The notes under the pieces were generated by a model. It was not told the DNA's origin and made no database searches. It saw only the letters and a program-made list of their open reading frames with translations. Both the position numbers and the translations under genes were made by a program. A DNA stretch of 64,000 nt from an uncultured Maribacter sp. (GTDB taxonomy: Bacteria; Bacteroidota; Bacteroidia; Flavobacteriales; Flavobacteriaceae): assembly GCF_963977385.1 (NCBI RefSeq), contig NZ_CAXBOU010000008.1, positions 108,619 through 172,618 on the forward strand. The letters are read 5' to 3'. Positions 35,572 through 57,942 of this stretch are shown piece after piece. Every line of letters starts with the position of its first letter. Position 1 is the first letter of the stretch.

Positions 35572-35587
35572 AGTAACTAATGTTACC
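35572..35587 (-). promoter_or_regulatory. CRP/FNR-type box upstream of the TolC-MFP-RND operon
   Basis: Gene-oriented GGTAACATTAGTTACT. After 21 nt comes a perfect -7 box TAATTTTG (35543..35550, minus strand). The box ends 40 nt upstream of the ATG. Confidence 0.7.
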
Positions 35588-36174: not shown

Positions 36175-37629
36175 CTATTCAGGAATTAGCCACCAAAAAG
36201 GTTTCATTTTCGCCTTATAAATAAAGGCATAGTGTAGGGCTAATTTTAACCAATGACCAGCTAAACCGATTTCACCAAAAGTCTTGTCTAACTGTCTACC
36301 TTGTGTATCGGGATATTTATGATAATCAGGTACAATAGGATAGGTGGTAATACTAACGCCACTACCTTTTGTCATTCCATAACCCGCAGATGCAATACAT
36401 GCTGCCCCCATGTTACCCATAGAACCCTTATGGTGCAATTCTTTTTTCCCGTTAATGATATCAATAATATTGTCTGCCACTAACTTCGCTGTAATACCAG
36501 AAGGCATTCCTGTTCTTGGCGGAGCAGGGGATATGAGTGTACCATTTTTACTTACCCTAGGTTTAGAAATAGCATGCGGTGGAGCAAACGCAATACCTGG
36601 GGCGAATATATTTTTATACGACGGATTTTGGTAGATTTCAGGCCAATCTTGTACACTCCATTCTTCATATGGTTTAGGCGTATAATCGGCATCGACCAAC
36701 ATAAATCCTTTGAAGAGTTTTTCTGTGATATCTTCGTTATTTTTATTAAAAGCTTTAAAACCATGCCCTGAGAAAGCAGGTATTAGCATGGCAAAATCAT
36801 ATGTTTCAGAATTGTATTCACCATCTAGCGTTTCATAATGCGCTACACCATCTTCTATTTTGTTTACCCCTGCACCAATAATCCATTTTATACCACGGTC
36901 TTCAAAGACCATTTCGACCATTTCGCTAGATTTCATTATGTTGTTGCCGTAACTGAGCAGCATACCGTCCATACCAAAATCACCTAATTGATGCTCATTG
37001 GCAATCCATACAACTTCAGCTTTGTCACGTACATTATGTCGCCTTAGTTCTTGTTCAACATTTAAAATATATTCGAAAGCTGCACCTTGACACGTAGATT
37101 TTGCATGGCCAGTGCCAATTAGTATTTTCACTTTTTTGCCTTGTTTCATTTCCTGAATCAAGTCATTCAAAGCATGCCACGCATGTTCGGCATGTGTATA
37201 TGTACAAACAGAATATGCTTTGTTAGTACCTGGGTTTAGGCCTTCGGTCATATCAAAGGCTAGTTTAGGGCCTGTAGCATTTATTAAATAATCGTAGGTT
37301 ACTTTTTCGGTTTGTCCTTTTTTCTCATCGTTTACATATTCGATTTTAACAAAAGGCTGTGTAGTATCGGTATCACCTTCTGGGTGAAACGTAGTTACTT
37401 TTGCTTGTTTATAACCGATGCTTTTTTTCTTGTATAAAGGAGCCAAAGGAAATAGGATCTCTTTAGACTTCATTCTACCAATACCAACCCAAATGTTTGA
37501 GGGTATCCATTGGTAATTACTATTTGGCGAAACAACCAAAACTTCATGTTCTTTCGATAATTTTCGACGTAGATGAGCTGCTGCGACGTGACCGGAAATT
37601 CCTGCACCTAATATGACTATTTTTGACAT
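36175..37629 (-). CDS. FAD-dependent sulfide:quinone oxidoreductase-like protein (long form, C-terminal amphipathic tail)
   Basis: 484 aa. Rossmann motif ILGAGISGH, cysteine motifs KSTCQGAAFEY and GAACIASAG in the positions used by SQR-family enzymes, and a hydrophobic C-terminus. Confidence 0.7.
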   Translation of the reverse strand: MSKIVILGAGISGHVAAAHLRRKLSKEHEVLVVSPNSNYQWIPSNIWVGIGRMKSKEILFPLAPLYKKKSIGYKQAKVTTFHPEGDTDTTQPFVKIEYVNDEKKGQTEKVTYDYLINATGPKLAFDMTEGLNPGTNKAYSVCTYTHAEHAWHALNDLIQEMKQGKKVKILIGTGHAKSTCQGAAFEYILNVEQELRRHNVRDKAEVVWIANEHQLGDFGMDGMLLSYGNNIMKSSEMVEMVFEDRGIKWIIGAGVNKIEDGVAHYETLDGEYNSETYDFAMLIPAFSGHGFKAFNKNNEDITEKLFKGFMLVDADYTPKPYEEWSVQDWPEIYQNPSYKNIFAPGIAFAPPHAISKPRVSKNGTLISPAPPRTGMPSGITAKLVADNIIDIINGKKELHHKGSMGNMGAACIASAGYGMTKGSGVSITTYPIVPDYHKYPDTQGRQLDKTFGEIGLAGHWLKLALHYAFIYKAKMKPFWWLIPE

Positions 37630-37681: not shown

Positions 37682-37697
37682 AGTAACCTTTGTTACA
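37682..37697 (-). promoter_or_regulatory. CRP/FNR-type box upstream of the SQR-like gene
   Basis: Gene-oriented TGTAACAAAGGTTACT, ending 53 nt upstream of the ATG. This site has no recognisable TAnnTTTG at the 20-21 nt spacing. Confidence 0.55.
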
Positions 37698-40829: not shown

Positions 40830-40845
40830 GGTAACCATTGATACA
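40830..40845 (-). promoter_or_regulatory. CRP/FNR-type box upstream of cydAB
   Basis: Gene-oriented TGTATCAATGGTTACC (one half-site degenerate). After 20 nt comes a perfect -7 box TACTTTTG (40802..40809, minus strand). Confidence 0.55.
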
Positions 40846-41590: not shown

Positions 41591-41606
41591 GGGTAACTTA
41601 GGTTAC
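41591..41606 (-). promoter_or_regulatory. CRP/FNR-type box upstream of dps
   Basis: Gene-oriented TGTAACCTAAGTTACC. After 20 nt comes the -7-like TATCTTTA (41563..41570, minus strand). Confidence 0.65.
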
Positions 41607-45219: not shown

Positions 45220-45235
45220 TGTAACTCATGTTACT
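45220..45235. promoter_or_regulatory. single CRP/FNR-type box shared by divergent promoters (dsrE-like / dihaem cytochrome)
   Basis: TGTAACTCATGTTACT. There are 21 nt to TAGATTGG (45257..45264, plus strand) and 21 nt to TACTTTTA (45191..45198, minus strand). Confidence 0.65.
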
Positions 45236-47742: not shown

Positions 47743-49053
47743 TTAAACATCTTTGCCCTTCATCATCTTATTCCAATACAAATAAGGAAGGCCATATTTT
47801 TTAAGCATCCATAATCTCCAATGTTCTTTAGAAGAATCAAAGATTAGCATCTGCTTCAGTTTTGGGTCTGGTGTAAAGTTGTTGTCATAATCAAATTCGG
47901 CCAAAACCATTTTACCGTAATCGGTTACTAAAGGGCAAGAAGAATAACCGTTGTAAGATTTAGTTCCCATTTTATGGGTATTTATTAAAAGGTCAATATT
48001 ATCAACTACAATAGGTGCTTACTTACGAATTGCCGCACCTGTTTTGGCTGTTGGCAATGCAGCTACATCTCCTAAGCCAAAAATATTAGAGTATGTATTA
48101 TGTTGCATAGTTTGATGATTTACATCTAACCAGCCCGCAGGGTTTACCAAAGTTGATTCTTTTACAAATTTAGGAGCTATAGAAGGTGGTGCAGTATGTA
48201 ACATATCATAATGAATACCATATCGATTTCCGTCAATAATTACCTTAACATCTTTATAATTGTATTGAAACTTATCGTCTAGTTTTAAGTCATCAACTTT
48301 ATTACTTGAAATTACGACACAACCTCCGGCTGTAATTTCTTGTCCCATTTCATACCATGCAATTTGTTTCTCGCCATCTACAGCGACTAATTTATGGTGA
48401 AATCTTAGGTTAATATCTTTACGGTCTACAACCTCCATTAAGGTTTTGGCTACCTCTTTTACTCCAAAAATAACGGTACCTCCAGTCGCAAATATAACAT
48501 CGGTCTTTTTCCTAACACCACTTTTTCTAAAATGATTATCAGCTAAATACATGATTTTTTGTGGTGCTCCGCCACATTTAATCGGTGTTGTAGGTTGTGT
48601 GAATAATGCGGTGCCTCCCTTGAAGTTTTTAATGACATCCCAAGTATGTTTTGGATTTGTATAATTACTGCACACCACACCTTTATCCATTGCCTCTCCA
48701 AGTCCAGGTACTAAACTAAAATCATAGGCAAGACCTGGGGCAACTACTAAATAATCATAAGTAATATCTCCTTTTAATGAGGTATGAATAATGTTATTTT
48801 CTGGGTCAAAACCTGTTGCCTTGTCCTTTATCCAAGTAGCACCTTTAGGTATAACAGAAGACATTGGTCTGGCAGTTTTTTCAAAATCATATGTACCAGC
48901 ACCTACGAGAGTCCACGCAGGTTGATAATAATGGGTGTCAGCAGGTTCAATAATTGCAACGTCTTTAGCTTTCTTTTGTGTGAGAAGCTGGGCTGCTACC
49001 ATAATACCTGCAGTACCACCTCCAATAATCAATACCTGATGATGTGTGCTCAT
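47743..49053 (-). pseudogene. type II (SQRDL-like) sulfide:quinone oxidoreductase interrupted by a single in-frame TAA
   Basis: ORFs 48019..49053 and 47743..47970 are in the same frame. The only break is the TAA at 48019..48021. The 48 nt between them read through as APIVVDNIDLLINTHK. The downstream part carries the conserved GYSSCPLVT...AEFDY...LYWN C-terminal region. Confidence 0.75.
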
Positions 49054-49107: not shown

Positions 49108-49123
49108 TGTAACAAGAGTTACA
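49108..49123 (-). promoter_or_regulatory. CRP/FNR-type box upstream of the interrupted type II SQR
   Basis: Perfect palindrome arms TGTAACAAGAGTTACA. After 21 nt comes the -7-like TATATTTA (49079..49086, minus strand). Confidence 0.7.
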
Positions 49124-49588: not shown

Positions 49589-49604
49589 TGTAACAAGAGT
49601 TACA
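49589..49604 (+). promoter_or_regulatory. CRP/FNR-type box upstream of the fatty-acid-hydroxylase-family gene
   Basis: TGTAACAAGAGTTACA, a 16-mer identical to 49108..49123. After 21 nt comes TATATTTA (49626..49633). Confidence 0.7.
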
Positions 49605-52722: not shown

Positions 52723-52738
52723 AGTAACTCTTGTTACA
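52723..52738 (-). promoter_or_regulatory. CRP/FNR-type box upstream of the prx-rhodanese-DUF3365-HMA unit
   Basis: Gene-oriented TGTAACAAGAGTTACT. After 21 nt comes TACCTTTA (52694..52701, minus strand). Confidence 0.7.
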
Positions 52739-52865: not shown

Positions 52866-54275
52866 TTATAATGTAGTAGGACAAATAAACTCAGATACTT
52901 GAATACCAGTTTCTTGTATAGCCTTAAAGCCGTCTTTTACATCAATGAGGTTATGTATACCTCTGCTTTTTAAAATGGAGGAAGCAATCATACTTCTATA
53001 ACCACCGGCACAGTGTACATAAAATATCTTATTTTCAGGAAATTCTGCTAAGTGGTCATTTAGAAAATCTAATGGTGTATTTACAGCTTCTAAAATATGC
53101 TCAGATAGATATTCAGATTCTTTACGTACATCGAACACAGGGGCTTTTTCACTTTCAATAATTTTTTTAAGCTCACTTGCATCGACTTGACTAACGGTAT
53201 CATATTCCATTGCAGCTTTTTTCCATGCCTCAAAACCTCCATCTAAATACCCTAAGGTACCATCGAAACCAACTCTAGAAAGTCGGGTTACTGCTTCCTC
53301 TTCTAATCCTACTGGCGCAACTAATAAAATGGGTTGTTTTACATCAGCGATCAAGGCTCCTACCCAAGGTGCAAAACTACCGTCTAGACCAATAAATATA
53401 GAACGTGGTATATGACCTTTAGCAAAATCATCTTGATGGCGCACATCTAATACAATGGCTCCCGTCTCATTTGCCGCAGCTTCAAAAGCCTTTGGGGAAA
53501 GCGCTCTTGTACCACGCTCCAATACTGTTTTGATATCTTCATAACCCTCTTTGTTCATTTTTACATTTAATGGAAAATACTGGGGCGGTGGAAGTAGACC
53601 ATCAATTACCTCTTCTATGAATTCTTCTTTGGTCATGTCTTTACGTAATGCGTAATTCACTTTCTTTTGGTTACCCAAGGTATCGACAGTTTCTTTCATC
53701 ATATTCTTGCCACAAGCAGAACCAGCACCATGTGCCGGATATACAATTACATCATCTGCTAACGGTATTATTTTTTCACGTAAGCTATCGTATAAATATC
53801 CTGCGAGGTCGCGCTCGGTTAATTCTCCCATTTTTTGGGCTAAATCTGGTCTTCCCACATCTCCAAGAAATAAGGTGTCTCCACTAAAAATAGCGTAGTC
53901 TATACCGTTGGAGTCTTTTAAAAGATAAGTGGTACTCTCCATAGTATGACCTGGGGTATGTAATGCAATAATGGTTACATCGCCCAATTTAAATTCCTGA
54001 TTATCTTTTGCTATAATAGCTTCGAAAGAAGGATTTGCTTTTGGCCCGTAAATAATATCTGCTCCAGTTTCTTTTGCTAAGGTTACATGGCCACTGACAA
54101 AATCGGCATGAAAATGAGTTTCAAAAATATATTTGATTTTTGCATTATCAGATTTCGCTTTATTTATGTAAGGTAACACCTCTCGTAAGGGATCAATTAT
54201 TGCAACCTCTCCATTACTTTCAATGTAATAAGCACCTTGAGCAAGACAGCCAGTATATATTTGTTCAACCTTCAT
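52866..54275 (-). CDS. persulfide dioxygenase (MBL fold) fused to two rhodanese domains (CstB/ETHE1-Rhd-like)
   Basis: 469 aa. Metallo-beta-lactamase motif THFHADFVSGH, HTPGHT, a middle inactive rhodanese and a C-terminal active rhodanese loop HCAGGYRS. Confidence 0.85.
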   Translation of the reverse strand: MKVEQIYTGCLAQGAYYIESNGEVAIIDPLREVLPYINKAKSDNAKIKYIFETHFHADFVSGHVTLAKETGADIIYGPKANPSFEAIIAKDNQEFKLGDVTIIALHTPGHTMESTTYLLKDSNGIDYAIFSGDTLFLGDVGRPDLAQKMGELTERDLAGYLYDSLREKIIPLADDVIVYPAHGAGSACGKNMMKETVDTLGNQKKVNYALRKDMTKEEFIEEVIDGLLPPPQYFPLNVKMNKEGYEDIKTVLERGTRALSPKAFEAAANETGAIVLDVRHQDDFAKGHIPRSIFIGLDGSFAPWVGALIADVKQPILLVAPVGLEEEAVTRLSRVGFDGTLGYLDGGFEAWKKAAMEYDTVSQVDASELKKIIESEKAPVFDVRKESEYLSEHILEAVNTPLDFLNDHLAEFPENKIFYVHCAGGYRSMIASSILKSRGIHNLIDVKDGFKAIQETGIQVSEFICPTTL

Positions 54276-54326: not shown

Positions 54327-54342
54327 CAGTAACTTAGGTTAC
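54327..54342 (-). promoter_or_regulatory. CRP/FNR-type box upstream of PDO-rhodanese gene 1
   Basis: Gene-oriented TGTAACCTAAGTTACT. After 20 nt comes TTAATTTG (54299..54306, minus strand; one mismatch to TAnnTTTG). Confidence 0.65.
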
Positions 54343-55876: not shown

Positions 55877-55892
55877 AGTGACATTAGTCACA
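55877..55892 (-). promoter_or_regulatory. CRP/FNR-type box upstream of PDO-rhodanese gene 2
   Basis: Gene-oriented TGTGACTAATGTCACT. After 21 nt comes TAATTTTA (55848..55855, minus strand). Confidence 0.7.
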
Positions 55893-56750: not shown

Positions 56751-56766
56751 AGTAACAATAGTTACA
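56751..56766 (-). promoter_or_regulatory. CRP/FNR-type box upstream of tauE-like gene
   Basis: Gene-oriented TGTAACTATTGTTACT. After 21 nt comes a perfect TACTTTTG (56722..56729, minus strand). Lies 6 nt after the regulator's stop codon. Confidence 0.7.
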
Positions 56767-56772
56767 GAAGTA

Positions 56773-57405
56773 CTATAAATCTAAAATTTTAATGTAATTA
56801 CGATGAAGTTTTATTTTACCCATCTCCTCTAATTTTTTTAATAATCTGGAAATCACTACTCTAGAGCTATGAAGGTCATAAGCAATCTCTTGGTGGGTAC
56901 TATGAATAATATCATCGTTTGTTACCCTAGCTTTTTCTTTTAAGTAGCCAATTAAACGTTCGTCCATTTTTTGAAAAGCAATACTGTCTAACGTGCTCAA
57001 CAATTCATTTAGACGAACATGGTAACTACTGAAAACAAAATTCCGCCAAGATTTATATTTAATGGTCCATTCCTCCATCTTTTGAATAGGAACCATTATT
57101 AGCTTGGCATCAGTTTCTGCAACGGCTCTTATTTCACTTTTAGTATCGCCCATACAACACGCCATAGTCATTGAACACGTATCACCTTTCTCTAAATAAT
57201 ACAATAGAAGTTCGTCGCCATCTTCATCCTCTCTAAGAATTTTAATAACGCCAGATATTAATAATGGCATTCCTCTAAGGTAATCACCAATTTCTATTAA
57301 TTTATAACCTTCGGGAACCTCTTTAAAGGTACCTACTTGAACAATTTCATTAATTAGTTCCTCTTCAAAAATATTCCCGTATTGCTCTTTTAAGTCTTGG
57401 ATCAT
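56773..57405 (-). CDS. Crp/Fnr family transcriptional regulator
   Basis: 210 aa with a cNMP-binding-like beta-roll and a C-terminal HTH (HQEIAYDLHSSRVVISRLLKKL). No FNR-type N-terminal Cys cluster, but C-x5-CC (GDTCSMTMACCMGD) lies inside the beta-roll. Confidence 0.9.
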   Translation of the reverse strand: MIQDLKEQYGNIFEEELINEIVQVGTFKEVPEGYKLIEIGDYLRGMPLLISGVIKILREDEDGDELLLYYLEKGDTCSMTMACCMGDTKSEIRAVAETDAKLIMVPIQKMEEWTIKYKSWRNFVFSSYHVRLNELLSTLDSIAFQKMDERLIGYLKEKARVTNDDIIHSTHQEIAYDLHSSRVVISRLLKKLEEMGKIKLHRNYIKILDL

Positions 57406-57412
57406 TCTTTTT

Positions 57413-57802
57413 TTAATTAACTTCTTGTGCTATTTTCTTATCAAATTTAAAAAATATATTTGCCCAAATCGATTTGGAAACTGCCGCTATCCAAGGCATG
57501 GCAAGTATTAAGCTAATGACGATTATAGCAAACAATGACGAAACCTTAAATTACAAGCCGTAAATCAATATCAAAACATTAGTGGCCAACGCAACAGCAA
57601 TACCTACGCCATAAGAAACATACATTCATCCACTATAAAAACTAGGTTTTAAACTGGAGATTAAATCGCATTTAGGGCATCGTTCTTTAATCTTGTTGAA
57701 ATTACTTAATTTATAAGGATTTGCCTTTAGGAATTCTCCTTTAAGACACTTTGGGCATTTCAAAAATATGATACAGTACAATTTGGAAGCTTTTGCTAAC
57801 AT
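57413..57802 (-). pseudogene. DUF983-like small membrane zinc-ribbon protein gene with two in-frame stops
   Basis: A single frame reads MLAKASKLYCIIFLKCPKCLKGEFLKANPYKLSNFNKIKERCPKCDLISSLKPSFYSG*MYVSYGVGIAVALATNVLILIYGL*FKVSSLFAIIVISLILAMPWIAAVSKSIWANIFFKFDKKIAQEVN. The TGA is at 57626..57628 and the TAA at 57551..57553. The CPxC...CPxC plus two-TM layout is as I recall for DUF983. Confidence 0.65.
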
Positions 57803-57849: not shown

Positions 57850-57865
57850 GGTAATCATAGTTGCA
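57850..57865 (-). promoter_or_regulatory. degenerate CRP/FNR-type box upstream of the DUF983-like/crp unit (possible autoregulation)
   Basis: Gene-oriented TGCAACTATGATTACC (2 mismatches). After 21 nt comes a perfect TAAATTTG (57821..57828, minus strand). Confidence 0.4.
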
Positions 57866-57926
57866 TAACACCACCCGATTGTATCCAATTTATAAAGGAA
57901 ATTTAAAACTAATCATAAAACCATGA

Positions 57927-57942
57927 ACTGACATTGGTCATA
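57927..57942 (+). promoter_or_regulatory. CRP/FNR-type box upstream of hemN
   Basis: ACTGACATTGGTCATA. After 21 nt comes a perfect TAAGTTTG (57964..57971). The ATG is at 57990. Confidence 0.65.

What the first reader, a model, noticed from the sequence alone, without database searches (positions are those of the whole stretch)
56773..57405. Candidate cognate Crp/Fnr regulator has no FNR N-terminal cysteine cluster but a C-x5-CC cluster inside the beta-roll
- **Sequence.** The protein lacks the N-terminal Cys-x2-Cys-x5-Cys that ligates the FNR [4Fe-4S] cluster. Instead it has three cysteines (GDTCSMTMACCMGD) in the effector-binding beta-roll. Its HTH has RVxxSR where CRP has RExxGR.
- **Regulon context.** The predicted regulon mixes sulfide/persulfide enzymes with microaerobic respiration genes.
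- **Hypothesis.** The cysteine cluster could sense thiol persulfidation or redox state, or bind a metal or haem ligand, rather than a cyclic nucleotide. This would be a sensing mode for sulfide different from the known CstR, SqrR, BigR and FisR types.
- **Status.** This is inference only.
Basis: inference. Interest (0 to 1): 0.62.

Follow-up and report, generated by a model that had tools for sequence, protein, structure and literature searches.

The report
Cysteine-pocket Crp/Fnr regulator of sulfide detoxification
This Maribacter gene encodes a Crp/Fnr-type switch that almost certainly turns on the neighbouring sulfide-detoxifying genes; three conserved cysteines sit where relatives bind their signal molecule, so it may be an undescribed kind of reactive-sulfur sensor, but the chemistry is untested.

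Summary
The 210-aa Crp/Fnr protein (56773-57405, minus strand) has only three cysteines, C77, C83 and C84. It has no FNR N-terminal cluster, and its recognition helix is SRVVISR.

- **Conservation.** All three Cys are kept in 80 of 81 Flavobacteriaceae orthologues. C77 is present in 138 of 141 diverse relatives (32-64% identical). C83 and C84 are each kept in about half.
- **Cognate regulator.** Its box, GTAAC-N4-GTTAC, occurs 12 times in the 4.8-Mb genome, and 9 of those lie in the 21-kb island beside the gene. The island holds SQR, two CstB-like dioxygenase-rhodanese fusions, TauE, rhodanese, DsrE-like, TsdA-like, cytochrome bd, Prx and Dps.
- **Helix and box co-vary.** Val183 goes with GTAAC and Glu183 with GTGAC in other genomes.
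- **Activator geometry.** The box centre lies 29 nt upstream of the -7 element in 9 of 12 promoters, which is class-II activator geometry as in NtcA.
- **Linkage.** The link to dioxygenase/rhodanese/TauE genes holds across Bacteroidota.
- **Correction.** hemN and the cbb3 genes have no such box, so only cytochrome bd links the regulon to respiration.

Persulfide sensing through C77-C83(/84) is the best reading but is inferred. Haem, Fe-S or a non-covalent ligand are not excluded. I found no paper describing such a sensor. This scan has already flagged the same family on other genomes.

The parts
56773..57405 (-). Crp/Fnr-family regulator gene, 210 aa
   Evidence: ORF. Pfam cNMP_binding plus HTH_Crp_2. 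AF2 model with pLDDT 94.7. Crp/NtcA fold matches.
57154..57177 (-). Codons for C77...C83-C84, the remodelled phosphate-binding cassette
   Evidence: Sequence. C77 in 138/141 relatives, C83 in 74 and C84 in 80. CCC in 80/81 orthologues. C77 lies two residues before helix 79-84 of the model.
56845..56865 (-). Recognition helix S181-R-V-V-I-S-R187 (NtcA-like R-V-x-x-S/T-R)
   Evidence: NtcA reads GTA-N8-TAC with R186, V187, T190 and R191 (PMC11850224). Position 183 co-varies with the box type.
56752..56765 (.). Box GTAACAATAGTTAC upstream of tauE and the first PDO-Rhd gene
   Evidence: 23.5 bits. TACTTTTG starts 29 nt downstream of the box centre.
55878..55891 (.). Variant box GTGACATTAGTCAC upstream of PDO-Rhd 1
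   Evidence: 10.5 bits.
54329..54342 (.). Box upstream of PDO-Rhd 2
52724..52737 (.). Box upstream of the prx-rhodanese-Tll0287 unit
49590..49603 (.). Box upstream of the fatty-acid-hydroxylase-family gene
49109..49122 (.). Box upstream of the Pyr_redox_2 (SQR-like) gene at 48019-49053
45221..45234 (.). Box between the divergent DsrE-like and TsdA-like/porin genes
41593..41606 (.). Box upstream of dps, divergent to an unknown gene plus TonB receptor
40831..40844 (.). One-mismatch box upstream of cydAB
   Evidence: 14.7 bits. TACTTTTG starts 28 nt from the box centre.
37683..37696 (.). Box upstream of the SQR-like flavoprotein at 36175-37629
35573..35586 (.). Box upstream of the TolC/HlyD/RND efflux operon
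57851..57864 (.). Degenerate box facing the regulator's own transcription unit, possibly weak autoregulation
   Evidence: 7.2 bits. TAAATTTG starts 29 nt downstream on the minus strand.

Best explanation
**What it is.** The gene encodes the dedicated local activator of a roughly 21-kb sulfide/persulfide-oxidation island.

**DNA binding and activation.**
- A dimer binds GTAAC-N4-GTTAC with an NtcA-like recognition helix (R182, V183, S186, R187).
- The site is centred about 41 bp upstream of the transcription start, where it replaces the -33 element, so it acts as a class-II activator.

**Sensing (inferred).**
- The cyclic-nucleotide phosphate-binding cassette has been remodelled into a hydrophobic, cysteine-bearing segment.
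- C77 sits at the N-terminal cap of the short cassette helix and is the family-invariant nucleophile.
- Reaction with persulfides or polysulfides, which SQR makes from sulfide, would persulfidate C77 and bridge it to C83 (or C84) as a di-, tri- or tetrasulfide.
- This covalent 'ligand' would occupy the place of cAMP or 2-oxoglutarate. Through the conserved interfacial-helix Arg131 (= NtcA Arg128) and Arg58 (= NtcA Arg55), it would set the DNA-binding-competent conformation.

**Shown:** identity, conservation, cognate box, activator geometry and gene linkage.

**Inferred:** the signal, the chemistry at the cysteines and the allosteric path.
For: **Cognate regulator**
- 9 of the 12 exact boxes in the genome lie in the adjacent 21 kb, against about 5 expected genome-wide.
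- This is the only family member in the genome.
- Helix and operator co-vary in other genomes: Val183 loci carry 24 GTAAC and 1 GTGAC boxes, Glu183 loci carry 0 and 6.
- The helix matches the four base-reading residues of NtcA, and the box fits GTA-N8-TAC.

**Activator**
- The -7 element TAnnTTTG starts 29 nt from the box centre in 9 of 12 promoters.

**Sulfur signal**
- Island content: SQR-like, two MBL-Rhd-Rhd fusions, TauE, rhodanese, DsrE-like, TsdA-like, cytochrome bd, Prx and Dps.
- PDO-Rhd lies within 10 kb in 52 of 64 Flavobacteriaceae loci and next to most C77+C83 homologues across Bacteroidota down to about 30% identity.
- 110 of 116 regulator-positive genomes carry PDO-Rhd.
- Even C77-only relatives sit beside rhodanese, OsmC or thioredoxin genes.

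**Cysteines**
- C77 is invariant in alignment A1, and the triad is kept in 80 of 81 orthologues.
- C77 and C83/84 flank the segment that aligns to the NtcA 2OG-site residues 76-78.
- Known primary RSS sensors use a Cys pair that forms polysulfide bridges (review PMC13467558).
Against: - There are no biochemical data.
- By alignment, C77 occupies the position of CRP I70 / NtcA F74. That residue could be a core residue rather than a pocket-lining one.
- About a quarter of the wider family has C77 alone, so a two-Cys bridge cannot be the ancestral mechanism.
- The link between C83 and PDO neighbours rests on about two evolutionary events.
- A hydrophobic pocket with one invariant Cys also suits a haem-thiolate sensor such as CooA.
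- Sulfide and low oxygen co-occur in nature, so the regulon content does not rule out another signal.
Confidence: 0.55

Rival explanations
1. The protein is a cofactor-based sensor. C77 is a haem thiolate ligand (as Cys75 is in CooA), or C77/C83/C84 with a fourth ligand hold an Fe-S cluster or metal. Sulfide, O2, NO or redox state would act on the cofactor.
For: - The pocket is hydrophobic, with one invariant Cys at the start of the cassette.
- CooA, DNR and HcpR show that Crp/Fnr folds can hold haem in this pocket (established knowledge).
- A three-Cys [2Fe-2S] sulfide sensor has just been described in NreB (PMC13478379, listed).
- B. subtilis Fnr uses three Cys plus Asp (from memory).
Against: - No second invariant ligand residue occurs in the sensory domain.
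- PDO-linked clades with only C77+C83 exist (CCA, CCM), and 37 of 141 relatives have C77 alone. That is too few ligands for a cluster.
- Vicinal Cys rarely ligate the same cluster.
- CooA, DNR and HcpR entries were not among the 32 PDB sequence hits at E<=0.01.
Confidence: 0.2
2. The protein binds a small sulfur metabolite non-covalently (thiosulfate, sulfite, a low-molecular-weight persulfide or an organic acid) in the pocket, as NtcA binds 2-oxoglutarate. The cysteines would shape the site or tune it.
For: - Anion-binding positions are kept: S90 (= CRP S83) in 126/141 and R131 (= NtcA Arg128) in 122/141.
- NtcA is the closest characterised relative by sequence, at E 8e-11.
- The island includes TsdA-like and TauE genes that handle thiosulfate and sulfite.
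Against: - NtcA Arg87 and CRP R82/E72 have no conserved equivalent (alignment).
- An invariant Cys and a conserved vicinal Cys pair are unusual for a purely non-covalent site.
- All known primary regulators of cst-like operons are covalent thiol sensors.
Confidence: 0.12
3. The protein is a general thiol-oxidation or electrophile sensor (H2O2, disulfide stress, quinones). C77-C83/84 would form a plain disulfide, and the sulfur genes would be induced as part of a redox-stress response.
For: - The regulon also holds peroxiredoxin, Dps and an RND efflux pump.
- C77-only relatives neighbour OsmC and thioredoxin genes.
- Crp/Fnr members with redox-active Cys exist: FixK2, CprK and Flp (from memory).
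Against: - The conserved core of the neighbourhood across the phylum is PDO-Rhd, TauE and rhodanese, not antioxidant genes.
- In those known cases, oxidation switches the regulator off rather than turning on an activator.
Confidence: 0.1

Closest known systems
NtcA (cyanobacterial global nitrogen regulator, Crp/Fnr family)
   Same: - It is the best characterised sequence relative in the PDB (E 8e-11).
- The base-reading residues match: R-V-x-x-T/S-R (PMC11850224).
- The box fits GTA-N8-TAC.
- It is a class-II activator centred near -41.5 (PMC3898017 abstract).
- The allosteric residues Arg128 and Arg55 are conserved as R131 and R58.
   Different: - It scores 36.9 bits against the NtcA model cut-off of 245.
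- The 2OG-binding Arg87 is not kept.
- The pocket carries C77/C83/C84.
- The regulon is a local sulfur-oxidation island, not nitrogen assimilation.
- No PipX context was seen.
Staphylococcus aureus CstR / cst operon (also SqrR, BigR, FisR)
   Same: - The controlled genes are equivalent: TauE, CstB-like MBL-Rhd-Rhd dioxygenase, SQR and rhodanese.
- A conserved Cys pair is available for polysulfide bridging (review PMC13467558).
   Different: - The fold is different: Crp/Fnr, not CsoR, ArsR or Fis.
- It acts as an activator at -41.5 rather than a repressor (CstR, SqrR, BigR) or a sigma-54 enhancer-binding protein (FisR).
- The cysteines lie 6-7 residues apart in one cassette.
HcpR2 group of Rodionov et al. 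2005 (PMC1274295)
   Same: The operator consensus is the same, GTAACnnnnGTTAC, and it also lacks the FNR Cys motif.
   Different: - HcpR2 has Pro at the CRP-181 position and is defined by linkage to hcp in anaerobes.
- Here the residue is Val183, no hcp gene is in the island, and the linkage is to PDO-Rhd/TauE.
PDB 3dv8 (Eubacterium rectale Crp/Fnr, structural genomics, uncharacterised)
   Same: It is the top PDB hit (E 3e-15), with cysteines aligned to C77 and C83: DMCLLSASC.
   Different: It is 24% identical, has no third Cys, and its function and ligand are unknown.
CooA (CO sensor, Crp/Fnr family)
   Same: A Cys at the start of the cassette region (Cys75) ligates the sensing cofactor. This is from memory and was not tested here.
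   Different: There is no detectable sequence match at E<=0.01, no conserved His partner, and a different regulon.

Membership tests
Crp/Fnr superfamily | N-terminal cNMP-binding-type beta-roll, long dimerisation helix and C-terminal winged HTH | tested here: met
   Pfam PF00027 plus PF13545/PF00325. The AF2 secondary structure fits. Foldseek hits to CAP, NtcA, GlxR and FNR have probability 1.00.
FNR (O2-sensing [4Fe-4S]) | N-terminal Cys-x2-Cys-x5-Cys plus a central Cys | tested here: not met
   The only Cys are 77, 83 and 84. The NCBIfam Fnr score is 15.7 bits against a cut-off of 228.
FNR (O2-sensing [4Fe-4S]) | TTGAT-N4-ATCAA operator read by E-x-x-S-R | tested here: not met
   The FNR box is not enriched: 93 matches against 82 expected. 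The helix has Val, not Glu.
CRP (cAMP receptor) | Cassette residues G71, E72, R82 and S83 that bind cAMP | tested here: not met
   By alignment these positions are S78, M79, K89 and S90, so only the Ser is kept. The NCBIfam CRP score is 48.3 bits against a cut-off of 266.
NtcA | Recognition residues R186, V187, T190 and R191 and a GTA-N8-TAC box at -41.5 | tested here: met
   R182, V183, S186 and R187 are present. GTAAC-N4-GTTAC equals GTA-N8-TAC. The spacing to the -7 element is 29 nt.
NtcA | Equivalog-level sequence similarity and a 2-oxoglutarate site | tested here: not met
   The score against TIGR03697 is 36.9 bits against a cut-off of 244.95. Arg128 is kept as R131, but the loop that forms the site carries the Cys triad instead.
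HcpR2 (Rodionov 2005) | Pro at the CRP-181 position and co-localisation with hcp | tested here: not met
   The residue is Val183. No hcp-like gene was found among the island ORFs scanned with Pfam. The rest of the genome was not searched for hcp.
Primary persulfide (RSS) sensors: CstR, SqrR/BigR, FisR | CsoR, ArsR or Fis/sigma-54 activator fold | tested here: not met
   The fold is Crp/Fnr. The review lists only those three superfamilies.
Primary persulfide (RSS) sensors: CstR, SqrR/BigR, FisR | Controls SQR, PDO, sulfurtransferase and TauE genes | tested here: met
   Boxes lie upstream of these genes and almost nowhere else in the genome.
Primary persulfide (RSS) sensors: CstR, SqrR/BigR, FisR | A Cys pair that forms di- to tetrasulfide links with sulfane sulfur donors | not testable with these tools
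   C77+C83 are conserved in the PDO-linked clades. The chemistry needs mass spectrometry, and model coordinates for a distance check were not available.

The most novel reading that the evidence does not exclude
This family would be a fourth structural class of dedicated reactive-sulfur sensor. A Crp/Fnr fold would have its nucleotide cassette replaced by a Cys77...Cys83/84 dithiol that is covalently loaded by persulfide or polysulfide. The modification would act as a tethered effector that switches on a class-II activator. The family is widespread in aerobic Bacteroidota and would explain how marine Flavobacteria control sulfide detoxification.
Probability: 0.45. Interest if true: 0.75.

Novelty: new variant of a known kind. 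Interest (0 to 1): 0.62.

Why it matters
- **A gap in known sensors.** Dedicated sulfide/persulfide sensors are known only from the CsoR, ArsR and Fis families, plus secondary sensors. None is described for Bacteroidota, a dominant phylum in marine particles and sediments where sulfide pulses are common.
- **A new input for an old fold.** A Crp/Fnr-type covalent sulfur sensor would add a new input chemistry to one of the best-studied regulator folds.
- **A compact model regulon.** About 11 promoters share fixed class-II geometry.
- **A genomic marker.** The regulator plus its box would mark heterotrophic sulfide oxidation in metagenomes.
- **A point of comparison.** The wider family, with one invariant pocket Cys next to rhodanese, OsmC or thioredoxin genes, suggests an older thiol-based sensing mode.

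Tried and rejected
- **FNR-type O2 sensor: rejected.** There is no N-terminal Cys, the FNR box is not enriched, and hemN/cbb3 genes lack the box. hemN/cco genes neighbour the regulator in only 2 of 64 orthologous loci.
- **cAMP/CRP: rejected** on the cassette residues and model scores.
- **True NtcA or HcpR2 membership: rejected**.
- **Metal(loid) sensor of ArsR-like logic: considered and dropped.** The regulon is overwhelmingly sulfur enzymes.
- **The search for related loci with the 124-row alignment failed** because no stretch was conserved enough. It was redone with 15 rows.
I read neighbourhoods from the fetch from genomes plus tblastn and Pfam instead.
- **The listing of cluster members gave almost no names**.
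Absence from this library is not proof.
- **Structure.** The model is confident, but the tool returns no coordinates, so the planned Cys-Cys and Cys-Arg131 distance check could not be done.

Full report
**1. The observation.**
- The ORF at 56773-57405 on the minus strand encodes a 210-aa protein containing GDTCSMTMACCMGD.
- Pfam finds a cNMP-binding domain (residues 28-112) and a Crp-type HTH (149-210).
- The protein has exactly three cysteines, C77, C83 and C84, and none near the N-terminus. The recognition helix reads S181-R-V-V-I-S-R187.
- All NCBIfam equivalog models score far below their cut-offs: CRP 48 against 266, NtcA 37 against 245, Fnr 16 against 228.
- Close homologues are named from Maribacter.
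- Cys makes up 0.69% of residues in this genome's long ORFs, and C-x5-CC occurs in 4 of 2861 such ORFs.
- The sequence observation is correct as written.

**2. Conservation of the cysteines.**
- A search of 1.84 billion cluster representatives gave 3652 relatives at E<=1e-3 and 226 at E<=1e-30.
- Among the 141 best full-length representatives (32-64% identical to the query), C77 is present in 138, C83 in 74 and C84 in 80. The patterns are CCC 53, C-only 37, CxC 27 and CCx 21.
- In a 124-row alignment only G52, C77 and R182 are invariant.
- In 80 named Flavobacteriaceae orthologues (58-92% identical) the full triad is present in all but one. The exception is a MAG that keeps C77 only. Of the 81 rows, 74 have exactly three Cys.
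- The defining residue of the wider family is therefore C77. C83, usually with C84, marks the subgroup to which this protein belongs.
- Six of the seven other Crp/Fnr paralogues in this genome have no Cys at the C77 position. One distant, partial match (L007) does.

**3. It is the cognate regulator of the neighbouring island.**
- The palindrome GTAAC-N4-GTTAC has 14 matches at up to one mismatch in the window, against 1.65 expected.
- Genome-wide there are 12 exact copies. Nine of them lie between window positions 35573 and 56752, directly beside the regulator.
- A weight matrix finds 17 positions above 4 bits in the whole window. These add a one-mismatch box at cydA and a GTGAC-type box at the first PDO-Rhd gene.
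- The genes behind the boxes are:
  - a TolC/HlyD/RND pump;
  - an SQR-like flavoprotein;
  - cydAB;
  - dps;
  - a TonB receptor unit;
  - a DsrE-like gene, divergent from a TsdA-like dihaem cytochrome and porin;
  - a second Pyr_redox_2 gene;
  - a fatty-acid-hydroxylase-family gene;
  - prx-rhodanese-Tll0287;
  - two MBL-rhodanese-rhodanese fusions (CstB-like);
  - tauE.
- The regulator is the only member of its family in the genome (303 bits; the next paralogue scores 46 bits).
- In 40 homologous loci sampled across Bacteroidota, residue 183 and the box co-vary. The 27 Val183 loci carry 24 GTAAC and 1 GTGAC boxes. The 13 Glu183 loci carry 0 GTAAC and 6 GTGAC boxes, most of them directly beside the regulator gene. 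This is the pattern expected if this helix reads this box.
- The helix matches the four residues with which NtcA reads GTA-N8-TAC: R186, V187, T190 and R191. Val187 is the discriminator against CRP (PMC11850224). GTAAC-N4-GTTAC is itself a GTA-N8-TAC sequence.
- The same consensus was reported for the unrelated 'HcpR2' group, which has Pro at that position and is tied to hcp (PMC1274295).

**4. It acts as an activator.**
- In 9 of 12 promoter orientations a Bacteroidota-type -7 element (TAnnTTTG/A) starts 28-29 nt downstream of the box centre. This puts the box near -41, in place of a -33 element.
- That is class-II geometry, as at NtcA-activated promoters (PMC3898017 abstract).
- A degenerate box (7.2 bits) with the same spacing to TAAATTTG faces the regulator's own unit, so weak positive autoregulation is possible.

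**5. The link to sulfur genes is old and wide.**
- Of 301 Bacteroidota genomes sampled, 116 have a homologue at E<=1e-20, including 22 of 22 genomes in the same family. One large family has none in 63 genomes.
- Of those 116 genomes, 110 also carry a PDO-Rhd fusion at E<=1e-40. Among the other 185 genomes, 56 do (compared by hand). Kin are not independent, so this is descriptive.
- In 20-kb neighbourhoods, C77+C83 homologues sit beside PDO-Rhd, TauE and/or rhodanese in about 25 of 27 cases, down to about 30% identity.
- In Flavobacteriaceae, PDO-Rhd is within 10 kb in 52 of 64 loci. hemN/cco genes are within 10 kb in only 2 of 64.
- The hemN/cbb3 neighbourhood in this window is therefore incidental, and these genes carry no box.
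- An FNR-like paralogue with an N-terminal C-x2-C lies about 6 kb beyond the window end. It is a better candidate for their control.
- The C77-only homologues form one clade with 96/94 support. They neighbour single-domain rhodanese, OsmC and thioredoxin genes, or nothing obviously related.
- The C83/PDO correlation thus rests on about two evolutionary events and should not be over-read.

**6. Where the cysteines sit.**
- The AF2 model is confident (mean pLDDT 94.7). It shows a short helix at residues 79-84 between beta strands, which is the phosphate-binding-cassette helix.
- C77 lies two residues before the N-terminus of this helix. A helix dipole there can stabilise a thiolate (inference). 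C83 and C84 lie at its C-terminal end.
- From the HMMER alignment to S. elongatus NtcA:
  - C77 aligns with F74;
  - M79-A82 align with residues 76-78, which are part of the 2OG site (PMC11850224);
  - C83/C84 align with L79/L80;
  - R131 aligns with Arg128, the interfacial-helix residue that moves on 2OG binding (PMC6243067);
  - R58 aligns with Arg55 of the beta4-beta5 hairpin network.
- The CRP cAMP contacts E72 and R82 are replaced by M79 and K89, while S83 is kept as S90 (126/141).
- The effector site is thus remodelled around the cysteines, while the allosteric arginines are retained.
- I could not get coordinates, so side-chain orientation and Cys-Cys distances are untested.

**7. Mechanism and rivals.**
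- The most economical reading is a covalent reactive-sulfur sensor. C77 would be persulfidated and bridged to C83/84 by sulfane sulfur. The adduct would play the role of the effector and turn on a class-II activator.
- This agrees with the regulon and with the rule that known primary RSS sensors use a Cys pair (PMC13467558). It also agrees with the retention of C77+C83 where C84 is lost.
- Rivals:
  - A haem-thiolate or Fe-S/metal site. A single invariant Cys in a hydrophobic pocket also fits haem, but too few ligands are conserved for a cluster in many members.
  - A non-covalent sulfur-anion ligand held by S90 and R131.
  - A general disulfide-stress switch.
- None of these is excluded by sequence analysis.

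**8. Comparison and novelty.**
- In DNA binding and promoter logic the protein works like NtcA. In regulon content it parallels CstR/SqrR/FisR systems. It is a member of none of these families (see the membership table).
- Reviews up to 2026 list only the CsoR, ArsR and Fis superfamilies for primary RSS sensors. Seven of my eight library searches looked for a Crp/Fnr sulfur sensor and found none.
- This scan has already flagged the same family on this and other genomes, with similar conclusions.
  - C77 invariance across the wider family, and the C77-only clade with its rhodanese/OsmC/thioredoxin neighbours;
  - helix-operator covariation;
  - the finding that the boxes are confined to this island genome-wide;
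  - the mapping to the NtcA allosteric residues;
  - the exclusion of hemN/cbb3 from the regulon.

**Verdict.** The protein is a real, conserved and probably undescribed variant of the Crp/Fnr family. The regulator-regulon assignment is strong, at about 0.9. The persulfide-sensing chemistry is plausible, at about 0.5, but unproven.

Noticed in passing
G000:C8:178451-179155 (+), about 6 kb beyond the window end; locus L003:1465-2169: A second Crp/Fnr paralogue of 234 aa with an N-terminal C-E-N-C motif and further Cys. It looks FNR-like and is followed by a USP gene. It is a better candidate than the finding's protein for control of hemN and the cbb3 genes.
   Followed up: partly
window 57925-57940: Upstream of hemN there is a different palindrome, TGAC-ATTG-GTCA. 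It scores under 4 bits with the island matrix, so it may be a site for another Crp/Fnr paralogue.
   Followed up: partly
window 57413-57802 (-): Between the weak box/promoter and the regulator start there is a short frame with CPKC...CPKC motifs, interrupted by stop codons (seen in the minus-strand read). A second perfect TAAATTTG lies about 36 nt upstream of the regulator ATG and may be its constitutive promoter.
   Followed up: partly
window 55878-55891: The first PDO-Rhd gene has a GTGAC-N4-GTCAC box, the type used by Glu183 relatives, although the local regulator has Val183. The listed ORF start at 55884 overlaps the box, so the real start is probably the internal Met at about 55821.
   Followed up: partly
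G000:C5:58345-59751 (+): A third PDO-Rhd fusion, 75% identical to the one at 52866-54275, lies on another contig, away from the island. I did not check whether it has a box.
   Followed up: no
G000:C2:454193-454663 (-), locus L007: A distant 199-aa Crp-like paralogue (E 6e-7 to the family profile, sensory domain only) also has a Cys aligned with C77.
   Followed up: no
P0178 (493 aa): A representative of twice the normal length matches the query in two stretches, so it may be a tandem fusion of two family members.
   Followed up: no
loci L066, L069, L070, L075, L076: Distant relatives, mostly of the C77-only clade (L075 has C77+C83), sit directly next to a roughly 100-aa single-domain rhodanese, often with OsmC or thioredoxin. 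This recurrent pairing might reflect a sulfur-relay partner of the regulator.
   Followed up: partly
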